DNA of 64,000 nt, from positions 640,001-704,000 of the forward strand of contig CP000068.1 in assembly GCA_000002445.1 (NCBI GenBank), in the 5' to 3' direction. The first letter of the stretch is position 1, and every line of letters starts with the position of its first letter. This DNA is from Trypanosoma brucei. Taxonomy: Eukaryota. The notes beneath the pieces are model-generated. The model ran no database searches and was not told the DNA's origin. It saw only the letters and a program-made list of their open reading frames with translations. Shown in pieces: positions 37,517 to 58,971 of the stretch. The position numbers and the translations under genes are program-made.

Positions 37517-38504
37517 CTTTTCAGAAACACGGATTCAGCTTGGACTCAGAACGCTAACCAAAATAATTTTGATAAGGAAAGGACAAAAAATAATGAGAGT
37601 TTGACGTAACAACTCATTTTTTTTTTTGGAGGGGTGCGTATCATGGATGGAACAGTATTAACAAAAAAGGGAGTCGCAAAGCTTCAAAAAAAAAAAATGA
37701 GTGCATGTTCGAAAAGAGGATAGTAAAAAGAACAGTGATCACACGAGTTCAAACCTACATCGTGCACGCACATCTCTCCGGGATCCGTCATGATGTATTT
37801 ACTTGAAGTATCTAGTGAACTTCTGTAAAGATGGACAGGGACAAACCACAGACTTATGATATAGTATCGATTCCTCTAAACAAACATACGGCCGGTCGCC
37901 TTACGTGAGAGACCGCCACATGATCGCTGTGTAGTCCGTCTCAAAAAGGTAAAAACAGTTTGGTGCGCCAAGTGACACTAACAGTGATGATGATGCTATG
38001 GGTTTACAGACGCATTCGAACATGATTCTGTATGTTAACCAGCTGTAGTTGAAATGCCTCTCTACCGAAAGAAACCGACTGAAGTGTGAGAAAACGGACG
38101 AGGAGTTTCAAAATAAAAACTGATTTTCTGGATACCACTTAAACGGTGATAGCACGTTCATCAATAAATACGCTACACTTCAACACAAATATGTTCGCAG
38201 GTGAAGAGACCACTTTTCACATCCTGATAAGGCGAAATAATCAGAGGCGACGTAAAACATAAGTAAAACCAATGACAACAACAACTTCTCAGGAACAGCA
38301 CTGTATCTGGAAAAAAAAACCGATTATGGCACCACCTCGATGGGATAGGGCGCACCAAGTATGTTCCCTTGCGTTCATTTTATTAAATTGTAGACAGTTA
38401 CCACATGATTCGCGTAGTTTTATAAGAATTACAAAAGTAATAATAATTTTACCCTACCTGTTATGTGCTAGAATGAGAGACATAAAACAGCTCACCGTAC
38501 ATTA

Positions 38505-40100
38505 CTACCTGGCCGCGAGGCGGTACTCGTCCTCGAGTTGCCTCAGGAGAGTTGGGAAACTCTCCTTCTCGTAGTCGTCAGGACAACCTCCGCTCACCCA
38601 CCGAATAACACCCTCGTGGTCTACAAGTATCACATGGGGCGAAAGGTAATTGCGTAGGCCCACCGATTTGTAAAACGGTACAAGCAACTTACTTCCAACA
38701 AACGTGGACGACGAGGTTATGAATCCATTGAGAAGGGACCTATCGTCAGAGCTTTCAGCACCTGTCGCCGTGGGAAACAAGGATCCTGCAAACCGCCGCA
38801 CATAAAGTTTGTGCACCCATCGATACTTGTAGACATCCATGCTCCGAAGTGAAAGCACACTAATTGGCATGTTACGGTCAACGGGGCATGCTAAGGTTTC
38901 ATTTCGGCAACGTCTCAACCCCCTTCCATGTTGGGCCTCTTCTGAGTTTACATGTCCCTCACCTTTTGCATTTTCTTTCGGAAGATAAGAGAGAAGTTTG
39001 GGGTTCAACACCGAATATGCAAGACGCCGCCACTCCAAATCGGCCTGTGCGCCTAGTTTCTGACCCAATTGTGAATAAATAACTACAGCAGGTCGCCGAA
39101 ACATCACCCTAGAGATCTCAGTAAGTTGTTGAGTGTCCGTTTCATCAAAAGAACGATTCAAATATAGCTTGCCAAGTGATTCCTCTGTAAGTTCAGCAGT
39201 GTTGTTGAAAAACGTCTTTTGCTTCATCAAGATACACAGCCTCTTCTCTGCCTCTTCATTGAGGGAACAGTATTGACTTACCCTTGCCGCTTTTAGGGTT
39301 GGAAAGAAGGGTACTGTATCGAACCCCAAAGATTCACACACAGTGCGGACCTTCTTTTGGCTAAGGGCAGCAGGGCCCCTCATAAGTTTACTGTTCTGGA
39401 TTATCTTCAACTCATTAAGGGCATGTTCGTTAAAGTAACGTAGCATCCGCTCCAGCTCATTGTCAACCGCGTATTCAATACCATACCTAAAATACTTGAG
39501 GACGAGGAAAACATCCCTTGACAGTATCGGTTTGTCTAGATCCATACCAACATCGCGGAAAACAAGCATCTTCTTTCTTTCACCTAGAACTTTTTGCTCC
39601 GCAGCACGGTTGTGGCGTCGTGCTACTTGTGACGTGGCTGACGGTCGACTTAAGCCAGCCGTTTCCAGATCCGTGAGCTTGCGCAGAAATTTATTTCCCA
39701 TGTGGTTTCTATCCAAACTATAGCTAACACGGGAGGTAGCCTTTGCAGTACCATTAACACCAAACGCCGTGGAACTCTCCTTCCTCGACATAACCCTCTT
39801 GTCCGCGCCTTGGTGGTGGCTGTACTGGACCCTCGCATCGTAGCTTTCCCTGGTAGCAGCATCCTTGTCTCCGCGTTGGATCCCCAAAGTTGCAGAAGCG
39901 TTTGCAGTATCATCACCTGCAGTAATTCTTATGTCCCTCGTGCCACTGGTTGTGTTAGAACGTGAGCGTGTACTGCACAATCGTTTCGGTGTCACAAAAC
40001 ATTGAATTACACACCGACCGAGATCTGACCGCCTGCAACACAAATCCGCCTGGATGTGTACGTTTGCATTCATCAGCGCACGCCTCTCCAGCATGTTCAC
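38505..40100 (-). CDS. Hypothetical protein (531 aa)
   Basis: Long ORF in cluster orientation. It is the last gene of the leftward cluster, i.e. nearest the strand-switch region. No recognised domain. Confidence 0.5.
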   Translation of the reverse strand: MNMLERRALMNANVHIQADLCCRRSDLGRCVIQCFVTPKRLCSTRSRSNTTSGTRDIRITAGDDTANASATLGIQRGDKDAATRESYDARVQYSHHQGADKRVMSRKESSTAFGVNGTAKATSRVSYSLDRNHMGNKFLRKLTDLETAGLSRPSATSQVARRHNRAAEQKVLGERKKMLVFRDVGMDLDKPILSRDVFLVLKYFRYGIEYAVDNELERMLRYFNEHALNELKIIQNSKLMRGPAALSQKKVRTVCESLGFDTVPFFPTLKAARVSQYCSLNEEAEKRLCILMKQKTFFNNTAELTEESLGKLYLNRSFDETDTQQLTEISRVMFRRPAVVIYSQLGQKLGAQADLEWRRLAYSVLNPKLLSYLPKENAKGEGHVNSEEAQHGRGLRRCRNETLACPVDRNMPISVLSLRSMDVYKYRWVHKLYVRRFAGSLFPTATGAESSDDRSLLNGFITSSSTFVGSKLLVPFYKSVGLRNYLSPHVILVDHEGVIRWVSGGCPDDYEKESFPTLLRQLEDEYRLAAR

Positions 40101-42939
40101 TTTCTCTATATGTGTTTGTTTGTGTGTTTGAGGATGACAAGTGGTAGTGTTTTCAATGCGTGACCATGTTAACGAATTACAGTTAAAGTGCTATCAACGA
40201 GGGCACTTCCAGCGATGTAACACGCACATCTTCTACGATAGATTGCTAAAAGGATTTTATTTTTAAGGGCACGACAATGATCATATAAAACGAGAAACAG
40301 CATGCTCTTTCAGATGATACTGACAGAATAAGTGGAGAGGAGTACCAAAAAAGTCACAGAAAGAGCGCTGACCAGCAAAGGATGACGAAAAAAATCAATA
40401 CAAACGACTAAGTACCGGAGAGATTCACAAATACACACGCAAAACGCGCTTTGTATCACTTATACGCTTTCATGCGTGCTTTGCTCGTGAGGTCCAGAAA
40501 TAAAGCAAAAATTATACGCGGTGACATCACTCAATAGGAAACAATCTGAAACGGCTGCTAATAGTGTTCACGACAGCGATAGCGAAGCAATGGCGTAACA
40601 ACCTTCACAAAGAGCGGTTGGGATCATTTAAAAATGCGCACAGACACACCAAATCATGGTGGTGAGGACCAGTGTAAAACCACCCACTCTGGTAATCACA
40701 CCAAGGAAATTTAGTTCCATGGGTAAAATACAATAACAGAACCATCACACCCCTCACGGTCACACTTCAAGGGGGTTACGTGGAGGAAACCATACTAGAA
40801 ACCGTGGTATGCGCAGAATGATGCTAATGAACAGTAGAACCAAAAAAAAAGTAGCACTCATGACCCGCCTCGAGGGTACACACCTTCTCGAAAACTCACG
40901 TGCCACGTTAGAATGACAGTGCAACTACCCACGGGGGCAGAACGGCAAACATAAATAAGTACAAGGAGTTCTATCGCAAAAAATTCCGAAATAACCCCTA
41001 ATGCACTATTTGACAAAAATAAACAATGATGCAGTAATTACAAAAAAAAACAGCAACACTCCCCATACACACTAGCTTAAGGAGCATTCGATTATAAACA
41101 CAGCGGTACAGTGGTCAAAAGGAACAAAAAGTGAAATACTACTTAGGGTCCGTTATAAGGAATAGTGGAAACGCACCGATATTTTAACCAATATACCAGA
41201 ACAAAAAACTTCAAAATAAAGAAAAAATACATCCAACAAACGCTTGGCACACCAAATGGAGAAATTGGAGATCGCAAGCAACCCTCTCATGCTTTTCTAA
41301 ATACGGCTAATCAATCAAAAAAGCAAACACCCCATAGTCCGTTTCTGGTCCCCTTACGTCTTGCAGAAGGAAATTATGAAGATCATCAAAATATTTACGA
41401 GGGTTGTCGGAAACCCCACGGTAATGACATCTTTAGGCACCAAAAACTCCTGGGAGCAGCACGCACTTGCCCCAAGAAATAACGAAAACGCAAAAAACAC
41501 AAAAGATTCTCAGACAACTACTCCCACAATTTTATAAGCCTTAAAACCTGCGATACGGAGAGGAAGGTCCTGGTCCACCCGCTCCCTGTCCCTTGAAAAA
41601 GCTGTTTACGTGACCACTTTCTTTGTACGCTCATATGCATAAGCTAACATTGCCCTTACTAACTCCATTAATCCACAGGCAATCGCCTCAGACCACACGG
41701 CCGCGAAAAGGAAAATGGTCGCAAGAACGGCAAAGCCAATAGGTACGCGGTGTATCTTGGGGGTTCAGCCACCGCGTAACCGCGGCTGATGCCCACATTC
41801 ACTACAGACGTGTGCCCAACCCTCCGAGCAATATGATAAGGAGACTACCTCTAACACGTCAGCCTGTTCGAACGGATCACCTTCAACTTCGCCAGCAACG
41901 AGACACAATGACCCTGGCGGAAAACAGCTGCCTTTTCATTTAAAGGGGTGCATCGGCCATAGCGCAGCACACCACCGCCTGTTCTCCCACTACTGCCCGC
42001 CTACTGAAGGACAGTCGCGTCCCGAGGCCACGCTCAGTCGACGATAATACCTCTGCGAAGAGAGCAAATCCACAGCCGGGCGGAGACCATCACACATCCC
42101 GTGCCCCCAGAGGGGCGGTCCTGCGACCAGCAACATCGAACCTGACCCCTGCACCGACCCCTGTTCCATTTCTCTCTGCCTTTCCACCCACACCCGTACC
42201 TCATGCGCGATACCTCGGTTTCCTAAAGGGGATCGCCCCGACCCCCAGGAACATCCGACTCCAAATGTGGCCCTAGGGCCCGGCACCTCCAGTTTTAGAG
42301 GAAGCGGATCATCGCAACGTTCAGAGGGCGAAAATAAAAAAAAAGTCACCAGCCTCGTCCCCCGGAAGATGTGGCCTTGAGCTCACGCTGAAAAAGACCC
42401 GCTACCTACGATAACTCAGCGCTTTCTTCGAACCCCACTAGCACACACCCGTTTCGCTCGGCAATCCTCACTGCTGATGTATCGAAAAGGAGTGCCTCCT
42501 CCAAAGAAAACACCACCACACCCTACTCTTTAAGACTTCGCCTTCCGGAGACATGATTTTTCCTGGATGGCGGACGCCGATTTGCCCACTGCATCGGCGC
42601 TATGGGGACGCGTGCTGGGGGCCCTAAGGCGGGTGAAAGTTCTGGGGAAACGGAAAGTTTGGCCTTCCGAAAAATGAAAGACGGCGGCGCCGGCACCCCG
42701 GGTTTGCCATAAGAAAACATCGAACCTTTATTTTTCTTTTAACCCCCGCATCATTGAGGGCGTTTCGCCGCACGACACCACCGGGGCGGCGCCGTGTCGG
42801 TGGTGAAATGTTAGTGGGGCGTTTAGCGCGTGCCAAGTGGGGTGAGGTTATCCAATTTGGAAAGGTGCATACCTGGTGGGGTGGGGTTGTCGATAGGCAG
42901 TCCTCGGAGGGTCTCGTTGTCCGCATCAGTCATGGCGTA

Positions 42940-42953
42940 GCATTGTGAGAATT
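42940..42953. repeat. Target-site duplication (left copy) of the L1Tc insertion
   Basis: gcattgtgagaatt directly precedes the T11 run (element A-tail). The identical 14-mer follows the element 5' end at 48214-48227. Confidence 0.75.
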
Positions 42954-43222
42954 TTTTTTTTTGAATTTTCTTCGTGCCTTCGTGAGAGTTTCCCCCCACT
43001 GGCGCGGCCATCAGCCACCACCGTAGAGCCCTGAGATGCTATCGGTCTGGCGACTGTGGCAGAGTCTCCCTTTTTTATTCATCCTAACACACCCTCTATA
43101 ATTTTTGTTGTATTTCCGCATTTGAACGGAATACAGCAGATGGGGCGAGAAGCCTCCCACCCCGGACTCTCCAAAAGATGTCAATTGGCAATCCTTTTTT
43201 TTTGATTTTTGTTATTCGTTTA

Positions 43223-44143
43223 TTATTCTCTCTCCCTCTTTCTGTTTCTGTTGCTTGTTGATTGCATACCTCCTCTGTCTCTGAGGGTGTCTGGACTATT
43301 CCTGCGTCCGGTGCTTTTCCTGCTAGCTCCACATTCGGCAATAAGGGGGAAAGTTGCAGAAGGGAGAGTGGGTTGTATGACTGTTACATTGAATGAGGAC
43401 TTCACCTGCGGCCGGCCCCGTTCAACCGCAATGAGAAACTGCGCCAGCCTTTTGGAGAAGCATATATCCTGCACACACTCACCTTCTACCGCAAACCTGA
43501 CACGTAACTCCTTCAAACCTAGACAGCTCATCGGGTGCAGCGACGTTTCTTCGCAGTCGCCGCGTTGGCTGGTAACAGCGCACTCTACCTTCATACCGTG
43601 CATCTTCTTTTGATGTAGGGTGAGGCCAGTTTTGCTAGCACACTGCCTTCCGCATGTCGTGCACACCAACATGGATGCGTTTGTATGTGAGGAATTAGTG
43701 GCACACAATTTTGTGCTTTTGCTGCATTTAAGCTCGACTCCCTCACCTTTGTGGAAAGCCTTACAGTGTCGGATGAAGGAGTCCCTGCAACTGAGCACTT
43801 TTTGGCACACACCACACCGCACCTCGCCTTTCCCCGGGACGTCAACATTTCCCTCACTGGCACGCTTACGAGGGAATTGCACCACCACCACGGTACCGTC
43901 TTCCGTCACTATGCTCTTATGTTTGAATTTCTGGTGTAGTGACAGGGAAGAGCGTGTACCGAAGCTCGCCTCGCACAGGTCACATTGAAACGGCAGCTTC
44001 CGTGTATCCTGAGGGGCTGGCGCTGCTGGGGCTCTACCATCTCCTTGTACTGAGTCCTCGTTCTCTCGCCCCCTTTTCACGCGGCAACTACCGCTGCCTA
44101 TGCCATGTATTGTTCTAAGGTGGTGTAATAGTCGGCCTGGCAC
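43223..44143 (-). pseudogene. L1Tc C-terminal C2H2 zinc-finger (nucleic-acid chaperone) segment
   Basis: Three C2H2 fingers: FQCDLCEASFGTRSSLSLHQKFKH, VRCGVCQKVLSCRDSFIRHCKAFHKG and LVCTTCGRQCASKTGLTLHQKKMHG. In a different frame from the RNase H segment. Confidence 0.7.
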
Positions 44144-45636
44144 ATTCTAATTTGGAGGCACAGAGGGTACAATGAAGCACCTGCGGTCTCATCAAAACTC
44201 GTGTGCTTCGATGGTAAAGGAACGATCGCCACCACTGGAGGGGGCTCCGGGGGGATGTCCACTGCAGGTGTTGCATCGCCGTATTTGATCCTCCGGATGG
44301 CATCAGCTCGCACAAAGCCATGTTTGTTTACCATATGCGTTACAGCACTCGAGCGGCATTGGTATGTGGCATCATATTCCGTACATTTGGTCGGTTCGGA
44401 GGTTCTCTGAAGAGTGCGTGTCGCAACAGATGGGGTTGTTTGTGTTTGTATTGTTGTTCCTATCACTGCATGTTGCGGATTGCACCATCGGCACTGTGGA
44501 GGCACACTCGGGTTGATCTTTCGCAACATCCATCCATAGTGTCTTGAAGACCCAACCCGAAAGCGTGCCAATACCGTTTCTTCTTCCCTCGTTAGTTCTT
44601 CCTTATGTTTTGTTGGAAAGTGATTGCCCGTGATACCAAACCTATGAGTGTTCTCATGGACTTCTTCCGACCTAAGCACTCGCTTCGCATAAGCAATGAT
44701 GTCGGGGATCCATGTGTCTCGCAACTGTGGTAAATCTGCGGCCTTTTTGGCCATGTCATCACAAACCTCATTCCGTTTCACGCCACAATGGCCAAACACA
44801 AATTGCAGTCGGATACGTATCTTCCTTCTCTGAACTTGAAGCAGAAGCCTCCATAGTCGTCTTAGAATTGGGTCCGTTACGGCTAGGGGGCCTGTCTGCA
44901 GTGCTGTTAACATTGACAGCGAGTCAGAGAAGATGGACAACCTGCTCGGTGTGCTTCTGTGTGCCGGAAGCCATTTCAGCAGCCGTTGCAGTCCTATCTC
45001 TAATGCTACGCATTCCGCTCTGTAACTGCATGAGAGTTCCCCTGCTCCGGTCTTGGGTGCGCAAATCAGCGTGTTGTTTCTATAGAGCAGGGCAGCTGCT
45101 CCGGACTTCTCACCGAGGGACACGGATCCATCAGTCCACAATTCGTAGTGCTCTCGCCGCGGTGGCTCCTTCCCCCTCCGTGCAAAATGCCGTGCAATCC
45201 ACTTTTCGGAAGCTTCCCTTTTGACATCGTCAGGGTCATCAGCGCACACAGGCCTAATCTGCGTGTGAAATATCGGTCGGCAGCTGTGGCGGAGCGTCGA
45301 TGTCTCTAGTTGGTGCTCGCGTGGCTCAATGCGGAGGTGGGGGTAGGACCGCATGATGCGGGAATGTAGGGCTCTGAGTGGATGTTTGCTGTGGTATACT
45401 TCCTCAGCACTGCGCCGCAAACATCCGCCTCGTGACTCACACATCAGCATGAACTTCATGCTGCGCACAAGAGTGGTCGTCTTGAGTGGGAGGAGGTTTG
45501 CTTCCAGCAGAGAGTCCTCTTCGCGCGTCCCATGCGGTATGCAAGCTATGATGCAACTACCCTTGTGTTGTGCTGCTGCAAGGAGGTCGCGACTTCGTTC
45601 CGAAGCGTCCCAGTACCATACCTCAATGCCATACAT
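44098..45636 (-). pseudogene. L1Tc RNase H-containing segment
   Basis: ELWTDGSVSLGEKSGAAALLYR...ELSCSYRAECVALEIGL matches the RNase H fold motif (TDGS...E...AE). Separated from the RT segment by an in-frame stop. Confidence 0.65.
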
Positions 45637-45720
45637 GGTGTGTGCCTGTACGAGTGCTAGATAAAAAGCTCTCAGTACTTGTCGTCTTGGCCCCCATGTA
45701 TAAACTGAGATGGCTGTTAT

Positions 45721-47394
45721 CTACAGTAGTCGGAAGTCCATCTTGCGTCTCGTCTCGGCCGCATGTGTTGCCATCCCTTGCAGACACTGGAATGTTACTC
45801 CTAGAAGCTTCGGTGTCCTGTCAGCTCCTATTCTTTCGCCGTCCAGTCGTAATGTAAGGGGGTGGCGCTCTGTACACCCGAAGAGTGTGCACTTTGTTTT
45901 CGCTACATTGATAGACATGAAGTACTCTTTTGACCACTGTAACACCACGTTGAGGCCGCATTGTAGTGTGTGGTTGATGACATCCCTCTCTGTGTGCCTC
46001 GCAAGTAGCGTCAGGTCGTCTGCAAAGAATCCGTGCTGCAGTAACGGCACTTCTGCAAGGCGTTGGCTCAACGAGTTCATGACAATAATGAACATGATTG
46101 GGCCAAGGACAGTTCCTTGTGGCACTCCTCGCTCAAATGTTCTGCTTCTGGAAAGCCTTTCCCTGAGTCTCACTCTGCCAGTTCGGTTACTCAGAAATGA
46201 TACGCACCACTTCACAATGTGGGGTGATACCTTCATTTTGTGCATTTCCCTCGCAATTTTGTCGTGGTCTACTGTATCGAATGCCTTCTCGTAGTCGACG
46301 AATACAGCACCCGTACGATATTGGTGCGTGGGACGGCAGAGGGCAGCGCGGACGTGCAGCAGCTGTTCGAGCGTTGAGCATCCGGGGCGAAAGCCTGATT
46401 GCTGCGGCGTCAGCTGGGACTCAACAGTGTCTCTAAGTCTCGCGGCAATTATGCGCTCCATGACTTTGCAGAGACAGCTCGTGAGCGTCACAGGCCTGTA
46501 AGAATCGAGGTCCTCCGCCTTTTTTCCGGCCTTCAGGATGGGGATGATAACACCGGTCTTCCATGCAGGCGGCACGACTCCCGTTCGTAGGCTCTCACTG
46601 AATAGCCTCAGAACAACATTCAGCGCTGTTCTACCGAGATGTTGTATTGCCTCGTTGTATAAGCAATCAGGTCCGGCTGCGGATCCACTCGGTAGCAGTT
46701 TGATCGATCTCCGTAGTTCAGCCATCGTGATGGGACTGAACTCACTCGCTATCGTCTTTATGTGTGCTGGTGGGTGTGAGTTGGGGTGCCTTCTTGCGCG
46801 GGACGAGTACAGTTTAATGAACCTCTCAGCTTGACAGTAGTCCGTGATGGCCGCGTTATCAACAAGTACAGTCGGTGTGGTTAGTGGTCGTGGCGCATAT
46901 ACCTTCTTGACAATGTGCCAACTGCAGCGGTCTGACACCGCAAGTCTGGAGCATAGCGTGCTCCATCTCTTCTTTGTGGTACGGTCCAGAATCTGCTTAC
47001 GCGTGGCTACCAACTTTTCCCTTCGGTGGGAGGGTCCGCATCCAGCAATCTCTTCATCGAGTTTCGCGAGCGCAGGTATCCAATGTGGTGGCGTTGCTCT
47101 GCAGCCACGGGGGACGGATGCCTTCGTCGCAATGCGGATGGCGGAGCTCAATATCTGTTCCAGGGTGTTGACTTTCTTCTCTCTACCAATTTTCCTGCAG
47201 ACCTCGTCAACCTTGAGACGGAAATTCCTCCAGTCAGCTTTTAGCCATGCGTACATGGGCTTTTGAAGCCGCGGGCAACTCAGTGCATCTGTGTCGTCTC
47301 CAACGATAACGTCGAAAAATATGTGATGGTGATCGCTATCGGGAGAATACAGCGATGTCCACGTGTACACTGTGCAATTCCTTGACAGTGTCAC
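45721..47394 (-). pseudogene. L1Tc reverse-transcriptase segment
   Basis: RT motifs YRPVTLTSCLCKVMERIIAARL, FRPGCST, and the FADD box (LQHGFFADDLTLLA). Lies between the endonuclease and RNase H segments. Confidence 0.8.
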
Positions 47395-47460
47395 ATCAGG
47401 GGTGGACTCCCCGTGGTGGCGCGCGTACCTGGTGCACTCACCAGTGTTGCAGACCAGAAC

Positions 47461-48066
47461 CTAGTTGTCAATGCACCACTGTGTGAGGGTTTCATCCTTG
47501 GTATTTGATGGGCTCGCGCGATCCCATGCCAACGCGTGTGCGTTAGCGTCTGCACCGATGAGCTGGGCACTGTCAGTCGTCAGAAGCGTATCTAGGTCAG
47601 TTGCCGTGAAGGTGCGTTTTGGTGGGATGTATGCTGACGTGACGGTCAGCGCCGTTCCACGTGCAAGGTGAATTGTTGCATGCACTTGTTCAATGCGACC
47701 AACAACGGCCATACCGGTCTCGACTAGTAGGTCCTCCTTTACTAGTATTGGTACACCACCTTCTTTGCAGTTACGAGCTATTCCGTGATGTTGATAGCCA
47801 GCAACGCTAAAGCAAGCCGCCTCTCCAGGCGTCATCCTTGTCTCGCTCAACAGACAAAAGGCGATCCGCTCATCAACAAGGGTTTTGTGGAGTGCTAATC
47901 TCTTTCCTTGAGATAGCCCCGGCGCAGTTCCACTGCATCCCGCGCAACGACGGGCCGGGATTCTCTTCCACATCACCGGACAGCAGCATCTTACTGCGGA
48001 TGATACTGCTGATGGCACGCTGGCACGTGCCCAGGGGCCGACAAATGAAAAACGGTGTCCCAGCAA
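47461..48066 (-). pseudogene. L1Tc AP-endonuclease segment (interrupted)
   Basis: Sits immediately downstream of the 2A motif and upstream of the RT segment, i.e. where L1Tc carries its AP endonuclease. The ORF ends in an in-frame stop before the RT ORF. Confidence 0.6.
47951..47980 (-). other. 2A-like self-processing peptide motif (SGDVEENPGP) at N-terminus of L1Tc polyprotein
   Basis: Minus-strand translation gives ...KMLLSGDVEENPGPSLRG.... The canonical D(V/I)ExNPGP 2A motif sits upstream of the endonuclease, as in L1Tc. Confidence 0.75.
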
Positions 48067-48136
48067 GACGCTGCTGATCCCTGTGCTGTATGATGCCGTA
48101 GCCGGAGCAAAGCAGTGTTCCCCATGAAAGGAACGC

Positions 48137-48213
48137 CGCTGGCTCTTGGCTTCCCCCGATGATACGGGGTACTGGACCCTGGCACCACGTGGAGGTGGCC
48201 GGCATCGCCAGGG
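48137..48213 (-). promoter_or_regulatory. Pr77-like 5' hallmark of L1Tc/ingi elements (internal promoter / HDV-like ribozyme region in the literature)
   Basis: Reverse complement begins CCCTGGCGATGCCGGCCACCTCC...GTACCCCGTATCATCGGGGGAAGCCAAGAGCCAG, the conserved first 77 nt of L1Tc/NARTc/ingi. Confidence 0.7.
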
Positions 48214-48227
48214 GCATTGTGAGAATT
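48214..48227. repeat. Target-site duplication (right copy) of the L1Tc insertion
   Basis: gcattgtgagaatt immediately after ...ggcatcgccaggg (reverse complement of CCCTGGCGATGCC). Confidence 0.75.
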
Positions 48228-48610
48228 AATCCCACGCCACCACCCCTTGCTTGGAATGCGTCTCTTCAGGGTCCCTCGGCACGTTTTTTTTTTGTGGCGC
48301 CCCATTCCGTCGCGTTACTCAGTAAGTGGTGATATAACTGTAGTCACTTCAGATGCTTCCATGTAGCTGCGCGTTTTTCTTCGGTACTTTTTGGTTGGCA
48401 CGCTTATCTTCTGCCTGTTTCACTGCACTGCGAGAATCTGCGTGCTTTGTTGTAATTTTTGTACGCCACCCTCTGTCAATGCGATTGTTCCTAAAGTGTG
48501 GAGAGGCTTCGTTGCACGTGTGTCGTGCGAACGCTCAGTGCAACCACGCGCCTGAAAAGTCTTTCATGCTTCTAGACTTTGGTGATCCTATGCAGGGGGT
48601 TTGCTCCAGT

Positions 48611-48639
48611 TCTGCTTCCGTATTATTATTATTATTATT
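48611..48639. repeat. (TTA)n microsatellite
   Basis: gtattattattattattattatga. Confidence 0.85.
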
Positions 48640-50538
48640 ATGATCATTTGTTATGCCCTCTCTTTTGAATGTCGTTTCTTCATCATCTTGTCCTCGTTTC
48701 CTCGTTGCTCACAGTGTCTGCGGGCAGTTTCTGTCGACTCAAACGGCTACGTTGGAACTGACGTGCGTTCCGCACGCATTTAAGGTTCATGTAAGTCATT
48801 GGCACTTGTGCCATAGTCTCCTTCTCGTCGGTGAGGAAATTGAATGCTGTGCCCGTCTAGTGTGGCAGCCGTAGGGGGGCCCTGTTGTGACGTCGTATGT
48901 TGTTTACAACTGCTCTTTATGAGCCGCAACTGGAGTTCTTGAACCTCCGAGGGCTTGTGCGCTGTGGTGGCGACATAAAGAGGAGACCAAATTTCGCTCG
49001 GGGTTCAGTGTAGTTACCGTGTTCCAATGTAGCATCTCTGCTTGCGAATGGGGGAAAAGAACATGCGCCTCGTTTTCTCTCTCGCTCCGCACTAAAGCAT
49101 GAGGTGCTCTGACACCGGTGCCGTGCTATCCCTCTGTGCTTCTGCTTCCCTGAGCTATGCCCAGCTGCCTTTCCGTCTCGAGTTTTGGCACTGAAGCAGA
49201 CTTTCGCAAACCCTACAGCGTGCATGGCTTCCGCGCACCCATGCATAGCTATGCATTTTCTAGGGCTAGCGTTTCACTGTTCCTAGCTTGTCACCCCAAC
49301 TCCTTTTCCAGGGTCTAAACTAGGACGCGGGCGCGTGTTTGTTTTGATTTATGTGAGTGTTCGGGAGTGTCTGACGGAGGTTGCGTTGACGCGACGTGAC
49401 ATACTCCAAGTCAATGCTTTCAGGTTTTGATTCCCATTATTATCTAACCATGGAACCCGGGGAGGGAGGGGGGGGGGGCGTTTTGTCCCGCAACGATCGT
49501 GGAGCGGTAAAAAGCAAGGCGCTGCCATGGCGCCGCTGCGGGAGTGCGCCGTTGCGCGCTGTCTGGCACGCTCGTGGTGAATAGCGCGCGCTCATGAGCG
49601 CGTGAGGCCTTCTATTGTTCCGGCACCCCGCTACGCTGATACCAGCTGAATTCAGGGTTAGGAGCACCCATCAGCATGTCAAATGCTGCGGCGAGGTGGT
49701 GGGGAAAGTCTCTCCAGTTGGGGCTCCATCAGTTACAAGCTACCCGCTTACAGCGGCTGACTCCGTATAGAAAATTATCACTGCGTTTCCGCGCCGCGTT
49801 GGAAGCGTTGCCAACAGACATGGAGACGTCAAGTCTCTCCCAGATTCAGACAAAAAATCGAAAAAAAGAACAGCCAGGCTAAAAAAAAAAAAATTGGCAC
49901 ATTAATAGATAGGAGATAGGAGATAAATGCTGTCAACAATACACTCCATGTTAAACATTTCCTTCTCCACCCAGAAGAGGTGGGTAAAATACCAACGTTG
50001 CCCCTAACGACCCTATATGGGGGTGGCACCAACCGTGCAGTTGAAACCAATATCAACTTGATGGGAAGAGCCTTCCCTGAAATCGATATCTTAAAGAGTA
50101 AAAGGCTGTCGAGGCCGTACACGAGACTTACCAACGCAGCTAGTGTTGTCTCGTTTTATTCCGTGTCTCCCATCAATGCGAGATGTTCACATATGACATT
50201 CGATGCCACACTATTGACCGGTGGACGGTGCGAGATTGCATCACCACAGCCCTTCCCTCAATAAGTACACCAAGTCCAATACAAACAAGATAATGAAGCA
50301 CACCTTGCCTTTCCACATCACGGCCGATAGCGTTTGGTACCCAGTTTTCTTTCGATATAGCGAATTAAAGAAAGTAGCACCATCGTTGACCAGCACAAAA
50401 CGATCAGGAAGTTACAAAGACAGAATCAACTAAACAGCCCAAAAACGACAAAGTTCCTTATTTTCACATACAGCACAACCCAAAGAAAAGCACCCCTACT
50501 ACGTTTCCAGGAGCAGCAGAGGTTTGTTGCCGCCTACC

Positions 50539-51210
50539 GCTGTCAAAAGCATTCCATGTTATAATTTGTTTGCCGCGCTTGGTCTCGTGATGCTGAGTGA
50601 TTGTGCCTGTGTTTGTGGTTTCACCCCCTCTTGTCACGCCTTCCGCGGTTGGTGTGATTCCATTTGTGTTTGTTTCATGTGTTTTGTTTCCCTCACTACA
50701 TTGTGTGGTGAGGTTTGCTACTCTTATGATGAGTGCGCCTTGTGCCGCGTGCGTGTGTAGTGCTCATTTACCACTTGCTGCTTTCCCTTAACCTATTTCT
50801 GGATGAAAGAGACTTTACTCTTGTTTTTACCCACGTTCAAGCCGACACGGATAACAATGGCCACCTGCCCTAAACACCTGTTCGGGAAGTACCATCTAAA
50901 GAGTTTTAATGGCAAAAGCGCCTTGGAGGGCGAACTGGCCGGTGTGACACTGGAGCTTGGTGAAGAAGACGGTCGTGTCACAGTACGCGCGAAGGCGGGA
51001 AATGCGATGAGTGGTGTGTTGAAGTATGAAGGTGGGATGCTCACCGGTCCCTTGATGTCTACAATGATGATGCCTCCCCCTGCTGTCTTGAAAGTAGAAC
51101 GAACCCTCGTGTCCGGTTTTTCCAGCGGTATGCATGCGCTCCGTGAAGGCTCTTCTCTTACGCTTTCGCATAAGACAGACACGATGGTGTTTGAGGCCGT
51201 GGAGTAAACT
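50539..51210 (+). repeat. Truncated, diverged leading copy of the tandem-array unit (5' flank plus small-protein gene only)
   Basis: Alignable with 52026-52687, 56208-56869 and 60390-61051 from aagcattccatgttataatttgtttgccgcgcttggtctcgtgatgctgag through the stop of the small ORF. Flanks differ on both sides. Confidence 0.85.
50803..51207 (+). CDS. Small single-domain protein, diverged paralogue (array copy 0); candidate FABP/calycin-like beta-barrel domain
   Basis: Probable start at second Met (50857): MATCPKHLFGKYHLKSFNGKSALEGELAGV. About 116 aa from that Met. Differs from copies 1-3 in the C-terminal third (MSTMMMPPPAVLKVERTLVSGF vs ISTIMLSPPALMEVESAFSSGF). Confidence 0.6.
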   Translation: MKETLLLFLPTFKPTRITMATCPKHLFGKYHLKSFNGKSALEGELAGVTLELGEEDGRVTVRAKAGNAMSGVLKYEGGMLTGPLMSTMMMPPPAVLKVERTLVSGFSSGMHALREGSSLTLSHKTDTMVFEAVE

Positions 51211-52039
51211 TGTTTCTCGACATGCAGTTACCCTTTTATTTTCTACTTGTGTTGCCACTACACTTTCGTGTTTGTGGTCGGTGTTAGCGAACACTACCTT
51301 TGTTTACCACTTAGTGTTATGTTATTTATTTTTGAAATCGGGTTATTATTTTTATTTTTTTTTTCCAGGGTGTAGATATTTGAACCCTAATAAACGTCAA
51401 CGTTTTGTTAATTTATACGGGGGTACGTGTTTTTTTATTTGTTATCGAGGTATAGGCCTTCTGTCATGGTGACTACTGGACATTTTCGCTTCCTCTTTGC
51501 TGGATGCTCCCTGAATACTCAACGTAATAGTATGAAGAAAAGTGAGATGGTAGGCGGGGAATAAGTGTATGTAAGGAGTATATATTGTACGGACATCGGT
51601 AGTGGTGATGATGTTGAGATTCTCTCTCTTAAAGGTTATATCTTTGTATCAACTGATTCGGTACATAAGATCAGATTTTAAATACTATCTTCTATTTATT
51701 ATTTATTATGGAGTGTGATAATTAAAATGTAAGGGCAAATTATCTAACTGCTTATGATCAGTTGATTAGGTAGCGAGTAGTTTAGATAGTATCTTATATT
51801 TAGGAGGTGAGGTGTCCATCTGTAGTAATGGAAGAAATTGTTTGTAAGGATCGACGGCAGTGCAGATAAAACAAATATCGAAGTATATATATATGTATAG
51901 AAGTTTGGCTCAGCGACAGAGATACAATATTCTGCAAAAATAAGATATAAATATTTCATCATTACCCTACCATGCACAGATTATCGATGTGTATCCAACA
52001 AGGTGGGCGCGTGCGACTCCTTCAAGCATTCCATGTTAT

Positions 52040-52279
52040 AATTTGTTTGCCGCGCTTGGTCTCGTGATGCTGAGCGATTGTGCCTGTGTTTGTGGTTTCA
52101 CCCCCTCTTGTCACGCCTTCCGCGGTTGGTGTGATTCCATTTGTGTTTGTTTCATGTGTTTTGTTTCCCTCACTACATTGTGTGGTGAGGTTTGCTACTC
52201 TTATGATGAGTGCGCCTTGTGCCGCGTGCGTGTGTAGTGCTCATTTACCACTTGCTGCTTTCCCTTAACCTATTTCTGG
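52040..52279 (+). promoter_or_regulatory. GT/pyrimidine-rich upstream region of the small-protein gene (putative polypyrimidine tract / trans-splice acceptor zone)
   Basis: tgtgtttgtggtttcaccccctcttgtcacgccttccgcggttggtgtgattccatttgtgtttgtttcatgtgttttgtttccctcac directly upstream of the ORF in every unit. Trypanosomatid trans-splicing needs such tracts (established). The site itself is not mapped. Confidence 0.3.
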
Positions 52280-52684
52280 ATGAAAGAGACTTTACTCTTG
52301 TTTTTACCCACGTTCAAGCCGACACGGATAACAATGGCCACCTGCCCTAAACACCTGTTCGGGAAGTACCATCTAAAGAGTTTTAATGGCAAAAGCGCCT
52401 TGGAGGGCGAACTGGCCGGTGTGACACTGGAGCTTGGTGAAGAAGACGGTCGTGTCACAGTACGCGCGAAGGCGGGAAATGCGATGAATGGTGTGTTGAA
52501 GTATGAAGGTGGGATGCTCACCGGTCCCTTGATATCCACTATTATGCTCTCGCCCCCTGCTTTGATGGAGGTGGAGAGTGCTTTCAGTTCTGGATTTTCC
52601 AGCGGTATGCATGCGCTCCGTGAAGGCTCTTCTCTTACGCTTTCGCATAAGACAGACACGATGGTGTTTGAGGCCGTGGAGTAA
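52280..52684 (+). CDS. Small single-domain protein (array copy 1); candidate FABP/calycin-like domain
   Basis: Same gene as 56462..56866 with two aa differences (K/E, P/V). Probable start at MATCPKH (52334). Confidence 0.6.
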   Translation: MKETLLLFLPTFKPTRITMATCPKHLFGKYHLKSFNGKSALEGELAGVTLELGEEDGRVTVRAKAGNAMNGVLKYEGGMLTGPLISTIMLSPPALMEVESAFSSGFSSGMHALREGSSLTLSHKTDTMVFEAVE

Positions 52685-53110
52685 AGGTGACGGGCATACG
52701 TTAGTGTGTGTTTTGTTTATACGGTGATGTAAAAAATGACTTAAATTTTCATCTGTTTTTCGGTTATATTGTAGGTGCATATTCAACTTTCTCAATACCT
52801 AATGGCGGTACTATTAGTATTATTTTTTTTAAATACTTTCCTTGTTCACGAATATGTGATATCTACTGATTCGTATGAGCACTTTTGTTTTTTTATGCGT
52901 CTTCCTGTCTTCGCTAGCGTTTTGTTGTTGATGTATTTCTTGATTTGCTTTTCGTTTCTTTCTTTATGCTCTATACCTTTTTTTGCCTTTCCCTTGTATC
53001 CGCATATTCTCGTCCTCTGGTCTCTACTCCGCCATATTTATTCATGTAGTGCATGTAGTACTGGTTTGCATCCCGTGGAAACCTCTGCTTTTGTGTAGCA
53101 CCCGCGATTT

Positions 53111-54541
53111 ATGGCATCAGACAATGAGTCCACTGTCGAGGTGAGGGAGGCTCGTGACACCGAGGAGTACGATGCGCAGGCTGCTGCTCGTGGGCTGTGT
53201 GACAAGGCATGTGACATAAAGAGCCTTCTACATGGGCACGTTGAGTCGACGCGTGCCCTCGAAAGGGTTGTTGGGGAATTTTGCACTCGCGACATCGCTG
53301 AAGAGGATGCCTTCCGGAAAATCTCTCTCGACGTTATGCATGCCGAAATGCGGGCGCTACGGGACCTTCACTACGTTGCATTTTCCCAGCGGTGGGCAGA
53401 GGTAGAAAAGGGCTCCGCTGCAGAGGAGGTCACCAGCCTACCTTCAGCGGATAGGAGTGTTGGAAGTTGCGTGTCCCACCTTCTGACCTCGCTTTGTGAG
53501 GGAAAGCCTGATGCAACTTTTAGCCTTTCAGAGTATTTTGGTGTCGCTGACGTGCTTATGGAATGGCGCTCGTTAACTCCAGCATCACAGGAACAGTTGG
53601 ATATTCTTCTTCTGTCAATAACCAGGAGCGTGGAGGACATTTCATCATGTGTCCTGCTGCTGAATGGGGTTTTATATACACCATCTGATTCATTTGATTG
53701 TTGTGAACTCACTCGACGGGAGCTCACCGCGATAATTGGAAGTGGGGGACCCGCTTCCGCGGAAGAGGCACTTGTTGGATGGCTTAATTTTATTGTGAGA
53801 CGCTCGTTACTCAACCAGACCCTTCTCCAGAGGCTGATGAGTTCGACCATCGAGTTTCGGAGAAGTGATCTTTGCCTACAGGGCGACGGCGCAGACGTGC
53901 TGGTTGTAGTCGACCACAGGCGGTTGTTGAACTCCGCTGTCTTTCGTGGGTTTTTCTTTTCTGGGGAGTTGCGTGGTGTAGAGGCTATTGGGGCGCAGGT
54001 GAACTTGATGTCAGTATTATTTGCAGGCAACGGCAGCGGAGATCAGCTTGACATAGAGAAGTGTATCGCCGACATTTTCCGCGCTTTATGGGAGCAGCAG
54101 GAACTGCTTTCATGTAAGTGGAAGAACGTTACTGTGACCCTCGCTGTTCAAGCCAGGAAGGACGTCGGAGCCGGCGCTCAAACCAAGTTGATGGACTTCG
54201 TTGTGCTCGATCTTCGCCCCCTGTCGCCGAACATTCCTTTTCAGTGGCACTTTACATGGGGCGAGGTCTGTGCACTAGGCCAGCTCAGTACGAATGACGG
54301 AGATAGAGCACGACCCCTGGACATTCCTGTTTTCAAGACGACTCGTGTAGCTGTAGCCTCTCTGGGGCCTTATGATAAACTTTCACGCATAATGTTCCCT
54401 TCGATTAACGAGTATTTACGTCTTACGCGGAAAGAGCCACCATCTGTAGCCCCAGTCGCCTACGCTGCCGTCGCGGCGGCGCTTGTCGTCGGGGGATTTA
54501 TTGTTGGAAGCTGCATACTCGGTTCCCGGCGAAGACGATGA
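53111..54541 (+). CDS. 476-aa protein with single C-terminal transmembrane segment (tail-anchored-like), array copy 1
   Basis: No N-terminal signal peptide (MASDNESTVEVREARDTEEYD). Single hydrophobic segment AYAAVAAALVVGGFIVGSCILG, 5 residues from the end, followed by SRRRR-stop. Repeated at +4182 and +8364 with one substitution (T/A). Confidence 0.7.
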   Translation: MASDNESTVEVREARDTEEYDAQAAARGLCDKACDIKSLLHGHVESTRALERVVGEFCTRDIAEEDAFRKISLDVMHAEMRALRDLHYVAFSQRWAEVEKGSAAEEVTSLPSADRSVGSCVSHLLTSLCEGKPDATFSLSEYFGVADVLMEWRSLTPASQEQLDILLLSITRSVEDISSCVLLLNGVLYTPSDSFDCCELTRRELTAIIGSGGPASAEEALVGWLNFIVRRSLLNQTLLQRLMSSTIEFRRSDLCLQGDGADVLVVVDHRRLLNSAVFRGFFFSGELRGVEAIGAQVNLMSVLFAGNGSGDQLDIEKCIADIFRALWEQQELLSCKWKNVTVTLAVQARKDVGAGAQTKLMDFVVLDLRPLSPNIPFQWHFTWGEVCALGQLSTNDGDRARPLDIPVFKTTRVAVASLGPYDKLSRIMFPSINEYLRLTRKEPPSVAPVAYAAVAAALVVGGFIVGSCILGSRRRR

Positions 54542-54789
54542 GCAGTATCCGCCTCTGCTTTTTTCTGTTCATCTTGTTTTATTGACTTTAGAGCCATATT
54601 TAGGCTCCGCTATGCGTCCTTGTTGGTTAGAGGTTTAGTATTGTTGTACCTGACTCTGTGACTGATGGTGGGTGCCGCACCGTATCTGCGGCATGGGGTG
54701 CTTGCGTGAGTGAGGATCCACACTTATTTGACCGCTGTTTGCTATGAAATGTTTCCCTCCTTTCCTACTTGTAGCCAAGTTAATATTGC

Positions 54790-56130: not shown

Positions 56131-56461
56131 CCGACATTGCGTTGAGTGTTGATCCGGATGTAAGATACACATATGTATGCGGAGGTGGGCGCGTGCGACT
56201 CCTTCAAGCATTCCATGTTATAATTTGTTTGCCGCGCTTGGTCTCGTGATGCTGAGCGATTGTGCCTGTGTTTGTGGTTTCACCCCCTCTTGTCACGCCT
56301 TCCGCGGTTGGTGTGATTCCATTTGTGTTTGTTTCATGTGTTTTGTTTCCCTCACTACATTGTGTGGTGAGGTTTGCTACTCTTATGATGAGTGCGCCTT
56401 GTGCCGCGTGCGTGTGTAGTGCTCATTTACCACTTGCTGCTTTCCCTTAACCTATTTCTGG

Positions 56462-58723: not shown

Positions 58724-58971
58724 GCAGTATCCGCCTCTGCTTTTTTCTGTTCATCTTGTTTTATTGACTTTAGAGCCATATTTAGGCTCCGCTATGCGTC
58801 CTTGTTGGTTAGAGGTTTAGTATTGTTGTACCTGACTCTGTGACTGATGGTGGGTGCCGCACCGTATCTGCGGCATGGGGTGCTTGCGTGAGTGAGGATC
58901 CACACTTATTTGACCGCTGTTTGCTATGAAATGTTTCCCTCCTTTCCTACTTGTAGCCAAGTTAATATTGC

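What the first reader, a model, noticed from the sequence alone, without database searches (positions are those of the whole stretch)
40101..50538. ~10-kb gene-free divergent strand-switch region separating the leftward gene cluster from the rightward array
All confident genes left of 40.1 kb are on the minus strand, and all genes right of 50.5 kb are on the plus strand. The interval should therefore contain bidirectional RNA polymerase II transcription start sites. Strand-switch regions like this are known hotspots for retroelement accumulation in trypanosomatids, which fits the L1Tc copy here. It also contains a long G-run (ggggagggaggggggggggg, ~49461-49480) and a (TTA)7 repeat. The segments 40.1-42.9 kb and 48.2-50.5 kb have no convincing ORF and might hide further decayed repeats.
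Basis: partly seen in the sequence, partly recalled or inferred. Interest (0 to 1): 0.5.

Follow-up and report, generated by a model that had tools for sequence, protein, structure and literature searches.

The report
Known trypanosome promoter gap with ingi

Summary
The genes left of 40.1 kb with a domain or published splice-site support are on the minus strand. All supported genes right of 50.8 kb are on the plus strand. The 10,762 bp between the two start codons (40095-50856) have no supported protein gene.

The window is not T. cruzi. It equals T. brucei TREU927 chromosome 5, Tb927_05_v4 coordinate minus 640,000. The gap lies between Tb927.5.2150 and the META array that starts at Tb927.5.2160. 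Kolev et al. 2010 (Table S14) already list both gene arrays as "Divergent" Pol II initiation units.

The retroelement is a 5,262-bp Tbingi at 42952-48213 (minus strand), not L1Tc:
- It has a perfect 12-bp target-site duplication.
- Its insertion site matches the published Tbingi target signature at 9 of 10 positions.
- It keeps an intact Pr77 5' end.
- Two premature stops and one frameshift inactivate it.

The G-run (49459-49478) and (TAT)7 (48621-48641) are real.

The two unique arms carry opposite GT-rich strand bias, which fits two dispersed, diverging start regions. The bias flips at about 42.55 kb, just left of the ingi.

I found no further decayed repeat, protein domain, tRNA or Rfam RNA in the arms. 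One published low-abundance spliced transcript, Tb5.NT.55, lies at 40245-40823 (minus strand).

Verdict: already known, low interest.

The parts
38505..40094 (-). Tb927.5.2150 CDS (529 aa, weak ATP10-like match). First gene of the leftward polycistronic unit. Its spliced-leader acceptor AG is at 40106-40107 and the mRNA starts at 40105.
   Evidence: The protein is identical to one in GCA_000210295.1 FN554968.1. Kolev supplements give the SL site at 680105, which is window 40105. The AG was checked in the sequence. Pfam ATP-synt_10 E=0.0034.
40095..42951 (.). Left arm of the strand-switch region: unique non-coding DNA. 40.4-42.4 kb is strongly AC-rich on the plus strand, so GT-rich on the minus (leftward coding) strand. 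I infer it is the leftward dispersed start region.
   Evidence: Keto skew -0.16 to -0.27. No intra-window repeat. No Pfam domain in six frames. No Rfam hit. No ingi/RIME remnant. No protein homologue.
40245..40823 (-). Published novel transcript Tb5.NT.55 (578 nt, RPKM 0.67, spliced-leader sites at 40245/40415). Probably non-coding.
   Evidence: Kolev 2010 supplementary files 23 and 28. Only ORFs of 54 aa or less lie here.
42546..42724 (.). Compositional switch point: the minima of cumulative GC, keto and TA skew. It lies 230-400 bp left of the ingi insertion point.
42940..42951 (.). Target-site duplication, copy next to the ingi 3' end (GCATTGTGAGAA).
   Evidence: A 12-bp TSD is the published size for Tbingi/TbRIME (PMC3820030).
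42952..48213 (-). Tbingi non-LTR retrotransposon, 5,262 bp and degenerate.
- A11 tail: 42952-42962
- Zn-finger ORF: 43223-44143
- RNase H ORF: 44098-45636
- RT ORF: 45721-47394
- Endonuclease ORF: 47461-48066
- 79-bp Pr77 signature: 48135-48213, with CCACC at +16-20 and the CGTG downstream promoter element at +25-28
- Lesions: two in-frame TAG stops (element nt 751 and 2491) and one frameshift (about nt 4070-4110)
   Evidence: Pfam domains. Frame analysis. Best RT hits are T. brucei equiperdum at 95% and "Tbingi" of T. theileri and T. grayi at 59%. Present at the same site with the same TSD in two other T. brucei-group assemblies. DPE position as in PMC4748587.
48214..48247 (-). 5' copy of the 12-bp target-site duplication (48214-48225), plus the 22-nt endonuclease target signature upstream of it (48226-48247). 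On the element strand this reads AGGGGTGGTGGCGTGGGATTAA^TTCTCACAATGC.
   Evidence: Matches 9 of 10 specified positions of the published ingi4 (Tbingi/TbRIME) consensus AxxxxxxxTxxxGTxGGxTxxx^xTxTxxTxxxxx in the exact register. The 7-position upstream part occurs only 7 times in 128,000 window positions (consensus from PMC3820030).
48226..50856 (.). Right arm of the strand-switch region.
- 48.4-49.6 kb is GT-rich on the plus (rightward coding) strand. I infer it is the rightward start region.
- It contains (TAT)7 at 48621-48641.
- 49.6-50.5 kb is an AC-rich block of reversed bias.
- 50547-50856 is the upstream part of the META1 repeat unit.
   Evidence: No domains, RNAs or homologues.
49459..49478 (+). 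G-run and G-quadruplex motif GGGGAGGGAGGGGGGGGGGG on the rightward coding strand. It is 20 nt in the first comparison assembly and 19 nt in the second.
50857..51207 (+). Tb927.5.2160, a 116-aa META-domain protein and the first gene of the rightward unit. The spliced-leader sites at 50810 and 50842 lie downstream of the ATG at 50803, so the 134-aa ORF is not the real CDS.
   Evidence: Pfam META E=1.3e-14. Kolev supplements. AG dinucleotides checked. The 116-aa size is stated in PMC7952579.

Best explanation
The interval is the divergent strand-switch region of T. brucei TREU927 chromosome 5 (Tb927_05_v4 about 680,095-690,856). RNA polymerase II starts two polycistronic units here: Tb927.5.2150->2020 leftward and Tb927.5.2160->2760 rightward.

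The ancestral region was about 5.5 kb of unique non-coding DNA with two arms. Each arm is GT-rich on its own coding strand. That composition is reported to drive directional, dispersed initiation and H2A.Z deposition in T. brucei. The right arm also carries an 11-G homopolymer within a 20-nt G-quadruplex motif.

A Tbingi LINE then inserted by target-primed reverse transcription at a canonical endonuclease target site, a few hundred bp to the right of the point where the strand bias flips. This doubled the region to 10.8 kb. It most likely left two separated unidirectional start regions with the element lying between them.

The ingi is a dead passenger, but its 5' Pr77 internal promoter sequence is intact and points leftward.

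Shown:
- Gene orientation and the identity of the locus.
- The published call of this region as a divergent start region.
- The ingi anatomy and its insertion signature.
- The strand bias of the arms.
- The absence of other detectable genes or repeats.

Inferred:
- The exact placement of the two start regions in the arms.
- That the ingi sits between them rather than inside the leftward unit.
For: Locus identity:
- Published gene and splice-site coordinates map exactly onto window ORFs and AG acceptors with an offset of 640,000 (checked).
- UPF1 is Tb927.5.2140.
- The sizes and position of the META genes match PMC7952579.

Divergent initiation:
- Kolev 2010, Table S14.

Strand switch and skew:
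-.
- Wedel 2017 shows that GT-rich coding-strand sequence, with long G or T stretches, drives directional initiation.
- Left arm keto skew is -0.16 to -0.27. Right arm is +0.14 to +0.17.
- The spliced transcript Tb5.NT.55 at 40245-40823 (-) shows that leftward transcription has already begun to the right of 40.8 kb.

ingi:
- Domains; length and lesions; homologues.
- 12-bp TSD.
- 9 of 10 match to the ingi4 target consensus.
- Pr77 with its downstream promoter element at +25-28.

Ancestry:
- The divergent junction between the ATP10-like gene and the META genes is syntenic in T. cruzi, T. vivax and L. major. No RT gene was called there, and those gaps are only 1.5-4.5 kb.
Against: - No chromatin or nascent-RNA track could be examined here, so the position of the start sites within the 10.8 kb is inferred from composition only.
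- The right arm's GT bias (+0.14 to +0.17) is no stronger than in the body of the rightward unit (about +0.16).
- An AC-rich block of reversed bias at 49.6-50.5 kb sits between the proposed rightward start region and the first gene, and I cannot explain it.
- The ingi points the same way as the leftward unit and has an intact Pr77, so it could be co-transcribed with that unit.
Confidence: 0.9

Rival explanations
1. There is a single bidirectional promoter to the right of the ingi, around 48.2-49.6 kb near the G-run. The ingi is then the first transcribed element of the leftward unit, or its own Pr77 acts as the leftward promoter, rather than lying between two separate start regions.
For: - The ingi is in the same orientation as the leftward unit, and its Pr77 keeps CCACC and the CGTG element at +25-28.
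- PMC4748587 proposes that Pr77 may drive adjacent polycistrons.
- SET27 loss derepresses promoter-proximal ingi transcripts.
- Kolev reports sense and antisense initiation at all start regions.
Against: - 48.4-49.6 kb is GT-rich on the plus strand, which is the wrong strand for leftward initiation.
- The strongest minus-strand GT bias in the window lies left of the ingi.
- The skew minimum (42.55 kb) lies left of the insertion point.
- The syntenic regions in T. cruzi, T. vivax and L. major have no called RT gene, and I infer that they initiate without a retroelement; their transcription was not examined.
Confidence: 0.2
2. The two arms are not plain promoter DNA. They hide a decayed gene or retroelement (DIRE, SIDER, RIME fragment or RHS pseudogene).
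For: - Tbingi/RIME often insert next to other retroelements, and T. brucei has about 22 SIDERs plus DIREs.
- The central 41.6-42.9 and 48.2-49.6 kb are relatively GC-rich, 52-59%.
Against: - blastn of the arms against the window finds only the META1 upstream repeat, and tblastx against the ingi finds nothing.
- nhmmer with the whole ingi and with both of its ends finds nothing outside the element at E<=10. The 79-bp signature aligns no better than to shuffles.
- No Pfam domain (including RT, endonuclease, RHSP) in any of six frames at E<=1.
- No Rfam hit at E<=1.
- No homologue of any ORF of 60 aa or more among 5.8 billion proteins.
Confidence: 0.05
3. The region also, or instead, serves another chromosomal function: a centromere or an early replication origin.
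For: - 19 of 42 early origins in T. brucei centre on divergent strand-switch regions (PMC3607257).
- From my own knowledge, T. brucei centromeres lie in retroelement-rich switch regions.
Against: - No tandem repeat array of any period up to 500 in 38-64 kb, and GC is 42-59%. This argues against a centromere, which in T. brucei carries AT-rich arrays of about 147 bp (from my own knowledge).
- Origin status could not be found in the supplements that are held.
- An origin would not exclude the promoter role.
Confidence: 0.1

Closest known systems
T. brucei divergent transcription start regions (dTSRs): Siegel 2009, Kolev 2010, Wedel 2017, Staneva 2022
   Same: - Diverging gene arrays.
- Several kb of non-coding DNA with GT-rich coding-strand bias and a G homopolymer.
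- A published 5'-PPP RNA-seq call as "Divergent" for exactly these two units.
- A low-level spliced transcript just upstream of the first gene.
   Different: Nothing essential. The region is twice the size of its syntenic counterparts because of the 5.3-kb ingi, so it probably works as two separated unidirectional promoters.
Tbingi / TbRIME (ingi4 subclade) non-LTR retrotransposons of T. brucei
   Same: - 5.26 kb, within the published 4736-5419 bp range.
- Domain order endonuclease, RT, RNase H, C2H2 zinc finger.
- 79-bp Pr77 signature and a poly(A) tail.
- 12-bp TSD and the ingi4 target-site consensus (9 of 10 positions).
   Different: This copy is dead: two stops and one frameshift. It differs by 4.4% from the copy at the same site in another subspecies, where the flanks differ by 1.5%.
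L1Tc of T. cruzi
   Same: Same ingi/L1Tc clade, the same domain order, a shared Pr77 hallmark and a 12-bp TSD.
   Different: - The host is T. brucei.
- No hit named L1Tc or T. cruzi appears among the listed RT homologues. The best is T. brucei equiperdum at 95%, followed by proteins named "Tbingi" at 59%.
- The insertion site carries the ingi4 signature, which the source paper lists as distinct from the consensus found upstream of L1Tc.
Mammalian CpG-island dispersed bidirectional promoters
   Same: Broad, motif-poor, divergent initiation over a nucleosome-unfavourable region that contains a G-run. Kolev et al. make this analogy.
   Different: CpG observed/expected is not elevated here (0.85-1.04 against a window mean of 0.95). 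Each start feeds a polycistron of dozens of genes.

Membership tests
Trypanosomatid divergent strand-switch region / Pol II dTSR | Flanking protein-coding genes point away from each other, with no supported gene on the wrong strand. | tested here: met
   Pfam-supported minus-strand genes on the left and plus-strand genes on the right. Ten opposite-strand ORFs have no domain. Published SL sites agree.
Trypanosomatid divergent strand-switch region / Pol II dTSR | Experimental evidence of Pol II initiation in both directions. | tested here: met
   Literature look-up, not my own mapping. Kolev 2010, Table S14, lists Tb927.5.2150->2020 (-) and Tb927.5.2160->2760 (+) as "Divergent".
Trypanosomatid divergent strand-switch region / Pol II dTSR | G-over-C and T-over-A skew on the coding strand that flips at the switch, with GT-rich coding-strand sequence in the start regions. 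| tested here: met
   Cumulative skew minimum at 42.5-42.7 kb. The arms are biased in opposite senses. Criterion taken from Wedel 2017.
Trypanosomatid divergent strand-switch region / Pol II dTSR | Enrichment of H2A.Z, H2B.V, H4K10ac, BDF3, SPARC and RPB1. | not testable with these tools
   No ChIP tracks are available. The SPARC supplements that are held do not list this locus.
Tbingi (ingi4 subclade LINE) | Long autonomous architecture: APE-type endonuclease, RT, RNase H and C2H2 finger on one strand, 4.7-5.4 kb. | tested here: met
   Pfam. 5,262 bp. Size range from PMC3820030.
Tbingi (ingi4 subclade LINE) | 76-79-bp Pr77 signature at the 5' end, with the CGTG downstream promoter element at about +25-28. 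| tested here: met
   The element starts CCCTGGCGATGCCGGCCACCTCCACGTGG..., with CCACC at +16-20 and CGTG at +25-28. Feature as described in PMC4748587. No reference ingi sequence was available for a full alignment.
Tbingi (ingi4 subclade LINE) | Poly(A) tail and 12-bp target-site duplication. | tested here: met
   A11 at 42952-42962. GCATTGTGAGAA at 42940-42951 and 48214-48225, 12 of 12 identical.
Tbingi (ingi4 subclade LINE) | ingi4 endonuclease target consensus AxxxxxxxTxxxGTxGGxTxxx^xTxTxxTxxxxx upstream of the element. | tested here: met
   9 of 10 specified positions match in the exact register. The upstream motif frequency is 5.5e-5 per position in the window.
Tbingi (ingi4 subclade LINE) | Closest RT relatives are T. 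brucei ingi copies. | tested here: met
   95% identity to a T. brucei equiperdum reverse transcriptase. The next hits, named "Tbingi protein", are at 59%.
Tbingi (ingi4 subclade LINE) | Ends made of the two halves of RIME. | not tested
L1Tc (T. cruzi) | Resides in a T. cruzi genome. | tested here: not met
   The window maps base-for-base onto Tb927_05_v4 gene and splice-site coordinates. It is 98% identical over 21.6 kb to two T. brucei-group assemblies. The T. cruzi syntenic locus has no RT gene in its gap.
T. brucei centromere | AT-rich tandem repeat array of about 147 bp (from my own knowledge). | tested here: not met
   Tandem Repeats Finder returns 0 arrays in 38-64 kb.

The most novel reading that the evidence does not exclude
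Start regions in T. brucei may be local mutation and recombination hot spots. Between the window strain and another T. brucei subspecies, the unique arms of this region differ three times more than intergenic DNA inside the adjacent gene array: 1.50% against 0.49%, p=1e-6. The ingi at the identical insertion site differs nine times more (4.44%), and does so uniformly along its length, with different inactivating lesions in each of three strains.

This would fit initiation-associated DNA damage (R-loops) in the arms, plus whole-element ectopic gene conversion of a promoter-embedded ingi. On that reading the intact leftward-pointing Pr77 would persist through conversion and could contribute to the leftward start.
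Probability: 0.15. Interest if true: 0.4.

Novelty: already known. Interest (0 to 1): 0.12.

Why it matters
It matters little as a discovery. The locus is in the reference genome of a model parasite, and its role as a divergent Pol II start region was published in 2010.

The value of the check is corrective:
- It fixes the species (T. brucei, not T. cruzi).
- It fixes the element (Tbingi, not L1Tc) and gives its exact ends.
- It fixes the true start codon of the first META gene.
- It shows that the two arms are unique non-coding promoter DNA, not repeat debris.

The locus is a clean natural example of a LINE inserted within a few hundred bp of the point where two divergent start regions meet. 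It could serve as a test case for two questions: whether such insertions are tolerated because the inter-promoter gap is neutral, and whether Pr77 contributes to polycistron initiation.

Tried and rejected
- **Known RNAs and tandem repeats:** Rfam at gathering score over the whole window found nothing, and neither did Rfam at E<=1 over 40-51 kb. This includes HDV-like ribozyme families. ARAGORN found no tRNA. Tandem Repeats Finder over 38-64 kb found nothing; the 4,182-bp META unit exceeds its 500-bp period limit.
- **Hidden coding sequence:** Six-frame Pfam scans of both arms found no family at E<=1.
- **Hidden repeats:** blastn and tblastx of the arms against the window and the ingi, nhmmer with the ingi and its ends, and Smith-Waterman alignment of the 79-bp signature against shuffles found no hidden ingi, RIME, SIDER or DIRE.
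- **Protein homologues:** Concatenated arm ORFs searched against 5.8 billion proteins gave no hit. One caveat: a 100-aa ORF was called at this site in another assembly's locus and was not returned either, so that ORF set is evidently not in this database.
- **Cross-species conservation:** Comparing the non-coding arms with the T. cruzi, T. vivax and L. major counterparts gave only low-complexity matches.
- **More T. brucei alleles or an empty site:** Look-ups through the META1 and 476-aa proteins were either not on record or returned only a collapsed 4.2-kb contig.
- **Published data for this locus:** Supplement searches for replication-origin or SPARC data found nothing. Siegel 2009 is not held, so its report of G-runs at start regions rests on my memory only.
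- **Rejected ideas:** Centromere (no repeat array); RHS pseudogene around the ingi (no RHSP domain); Tb5.NT.55 as a small-protein gene (no ORF longer than 54 aa).

Full report
**1. Where the window comes from**

The evidence says T. brucei.
- A 529-aa minus-strand protein (38505-40094) is encoded identically on two megabase chromosomes, FN554968.1 of GCA_000210295.1 and CM010676.1 of GCA_003543875.1.
- Those loci are 98% identical to the window over 21.6 kb, including the retroelement. From memory, the first assembly is T. brucei gambiense DAL972 and the second T. equiperdum.
- The supplements of Kolev et al. 2010 (PMC2936537) settle the identity. They place the Tb927.5.2160 CDS at Tb927_05_v4 690803-691207 and Tb927.5.2170 at 692280-692684. 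Those are exactly the window ORFs at 50803-51207 and 52280-52684.
- The window is therefore TREU927 chromosome 5, positions 640,001-704,000.
- The published spliced-leader sites fall directly after AG dinucleotides in the window: 680105 for Tb927.5.2150, and 690810 and 690842 for Tb927.5.2160.
- UPF1 (34982-37516, minus strand; Pfam) is Tb927.5.2140.

**2. The observation**

Gene orientation:
- To the left, the long minus-strand ORFs carry real domains: MutL_C-like, lysine methyltransferase, Myb, IMPDH, kinesin, DBR1 and UPF1.
- Ten opposite-strand ORFs of 150 aa or more have none.
- To the right, all supported genes are on the plus strand. There are two single META1 genes, then a 4,182-bp unit (META1, a 476-aa protein, a 446-aa META/DUF1935 protein) repeated 2.9 times at 99.7-99.9% identity.

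The gap:
- It runs from start codon to start codon, 40095-50856 (10,762 bp).
- The 134-aa ORF that starts at 50803 is not the real CDS, because both splice sites lie downstream of its ATG. The 116-aa protein starts at 50857.

Small features:
- The G-run is at 49459-49478. It is unique in the window, with 0 expected by chance. It is the only plus-strand G-quadruplex motif in 64 kb.
- The trinucleotide repeat is (TAT)7 at 48621-48641. It has 6 copies in the two other assemblies.

**3. The retroelement is Tbingi, not L1Tc**

| Feature | Result |
|---|---|
| Extent | 42952-48213, minus strand, 5,262 bp |
| Domain order | Endonuclease, RT, RNase H, C2H2 finger |
| 5' end | CCCTGGCGATGCCGGCCACCTCCACGTGG..., with CCACC at +16-20 and CGTG at +25-28, as described for the Pr77 hallmark |
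| 3' end | A11 tail |
| Target-site duplication | Perfect 12-bp GCATTGTGAGAA, the published TSD size for Tbingi/TbRIME |
| Insertion site | AGGGGTGGTGGCGTGGGATTAA^TTCTCACAATGC matches 9 of 10 specified positions of the published ingi4 target consensus, in the exact register |
| Motif rarity | The 7-position upstream motif occurs only 7 times in 128,000 window positions |
| RT homologues | 95% to a T. brucei equiperdum protein, then 59% to "Tbingi" proteins of T. theileri and T. grayi |

The copy is dead. It has two in-frame TAG stops (CAG in the other two strains) and one frameshift.

**4. What the arms are**

With the ingi and one TSD copy removed, about 5.5 kb remains.
- The left arm (40.4-42.4 kb) has the strongest strand bias in the window, with keto skew of -0.16 to -0.27. 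That means it is GT-rich on the minus strand.
- The right arm (48.4-49.6 kb) is GT-rich on the plus strand, at +0.14 to +0.17.
- Cumulative GC, keto and TA skew reach their minima at 42546, 42553 and 42724 respectively. That is 230-400 bp left of the insertion point.
- Wedel et al. 2017 showed that GT-rich sequence on the coding strand, with long G or T stretches, drives directional Pol II initiation and H2A.Z deposition in T. brucei.
- Kolev et al. list both flanking units as "Divergent" start units.
- They also report a weak spliced transcript, Tb5.NT.55, at window 40245-40823 on the minus strand. So leftward transcription is already under way to the right of 40.8 kb. That transcript has no ORF above 54 aa.

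My best model has two dispersed, oppositely directed start regions in the two arms, with the ingi inserted between them.
- Staneva et al. [quoted passage not shown]
- The same paper reports that promoter-proximal ingi transcripts are derepressed without SET27.

The placement of the start sites is inference. I had no chromatin or nascent-RNA tracks.

**5. No hidden repeats or genes**

- The arms match nothing else in the window except the META1 upstream repeat, and match nothing in the ingi by tblastx.
- nhmmer with the whole ingi and with its two ends finds nothing outside the element. The 79-bp signature aligns no better than to shuffled sequence.
- Six-frame Pfam scans, Rfam at E<=1, tRNA search and tandem-repeat search are all empty.
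- ORFs of 60 aa or more from both arms have no homologue among 5.8 billion proteins.

**6. Evolutionary context**

- The junction between the ATP10-like gene (followed by UPF1 and DBR1) and the diverging META genes is conserved:
  - T. cruzi: gap of about 4.5 kb.
  - T. vivax: gap of 1.5-4.4 kb.
  - L. major: gap of about 4.2 kb.
- No RT gene was called in any of these gaps.
- No non-coding sequence is conserved with the T. brucei arms.
- The switch region is therefore ancestral. All three T. brucei-group assemblies examined carry the ingi, while the T. cruzi, T. vivax and L. major gaps have no called RT gene, so the insertion most likely arose after T. brucei split from those lineages.

**7. 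A side observation**

| Region | Divergence, window vs GCA_000210295.1 |
|---|---|
| Coding sequence | 0.34% |
| Intergenic DNA inside the leftward unit | 0.49% |
| Arms of the switch region | 1.50% (p=1e-6 against intergenic) |
| ingi | 4.44% (p=2e-18 against the arms) |

- The ingi divergence is spread evenly along the element.
- The three strains share the TSD but carry different lesions.
- Gene conversion by other ingi copies and relaxed or damage-prone promoter DNA are plausible causes. I did not test them. Assembly artefacts in repeats cannot be excluded.

**8. Verdict**

The finding is a real and correctly recognised divergent strand-switch region. It is already annotated and experimentally characterised in the reference T. 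brucei genome. The corrections are the species, the element family, the exact boundaries, and the absence of further repeats. Interest is low.

Noticed in passing
window 42952-48213 compared with 40095-42951, 48214-50094 and 28858-38504 (against L001 and L002): There is a divergence gradient between T. brucei strains: CDS 0.34%, intra-unit intergenic 0.49%, switch-region arms 1.50%, ingi 4.44%. The ingi divergence is uniform along the element. Each of the three strains has a different set of stops and frameshifts despite an identical 12-bp TSD. This suggests ectopic gene conversion of the ingi and faster evolution of promoter arms, or assembly artefacts in repeats.
   Followed up: partly
window 49600-50546: An AC-rich block of reversed strand bias (keto skew about -0.10 to -0.12) sits between the GT-rich right arm and the first plus-strand gene. 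It has no ORF homologue, repeat or RNA family, and I have no explanation for it.
   Followed up: partly
window 50547-64000: META array. A first META1 copy (50547-51208) is only 95.5-96% identical to the later copies. A 4,182-bp unit then follows from about 52001 (META1 116 aa, a 476-aa protein with no Pfam domain, a 446-aa META+DUF1935 protein), repeated 2.9 times at 99.7-99.9% identity. Tandem Repeats Finder misses it because the period exceeds 500 bp.
   Followed up: yes
window 50803-51207: The 134-aa ORF annotated as Tb927.5.2160 in genome version 4 starts upstream of both mapped spliced-leader sites (50810, 50842). The real protein is the 116-aa form starting at 50857. The same applies to the repeated copies at 52280, 56462 and 60644.
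   Followed up: yes
window 51714-52230 (+) and 4267-5256 (-): Two further published "novel transcripts" (Tb5.NT.57 and Tb5.NT.53 of Kolev 2010) map inside the window, between annotated genes.
   Followed up: no
window 1-1500: Tb927.5.2020 (1497-4106, minus strand) is the last gene of the leftward unit. Published plus-strand transcripts end at Tb927_05 about 637 kb. The convergent strand-switch region therefore lies at or just before the left edge of the window. The 151-aa plus-strand ORF at 40-495 has no domain.
   Followed up: partly
window 18415-18424 and 18540-18567: A C10 run, and the only minus-strand G-quadruplex motif of the window, lie together in the intergenic region upstream of the IMPDH-like gene (16344-17819, minus strand). 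That is on the coding strand of the leftward unit and far from any strand switch.
   Followed up: no
window 25800-28800: About 3 kb of low-GC sequence (43-46%) inside the leftward unit has no ORF of 150 aa or more on the minus strand. It is probably long UTRs.
   Followed up: no
L003 8839 (T. cruzi syntenic switch region): The T. cruzi counterpart of this switch region carries a G8 run on the strand of the ATP10-like gene. That is the opposite arm from the T. brucei G-run.
   Followed up: no
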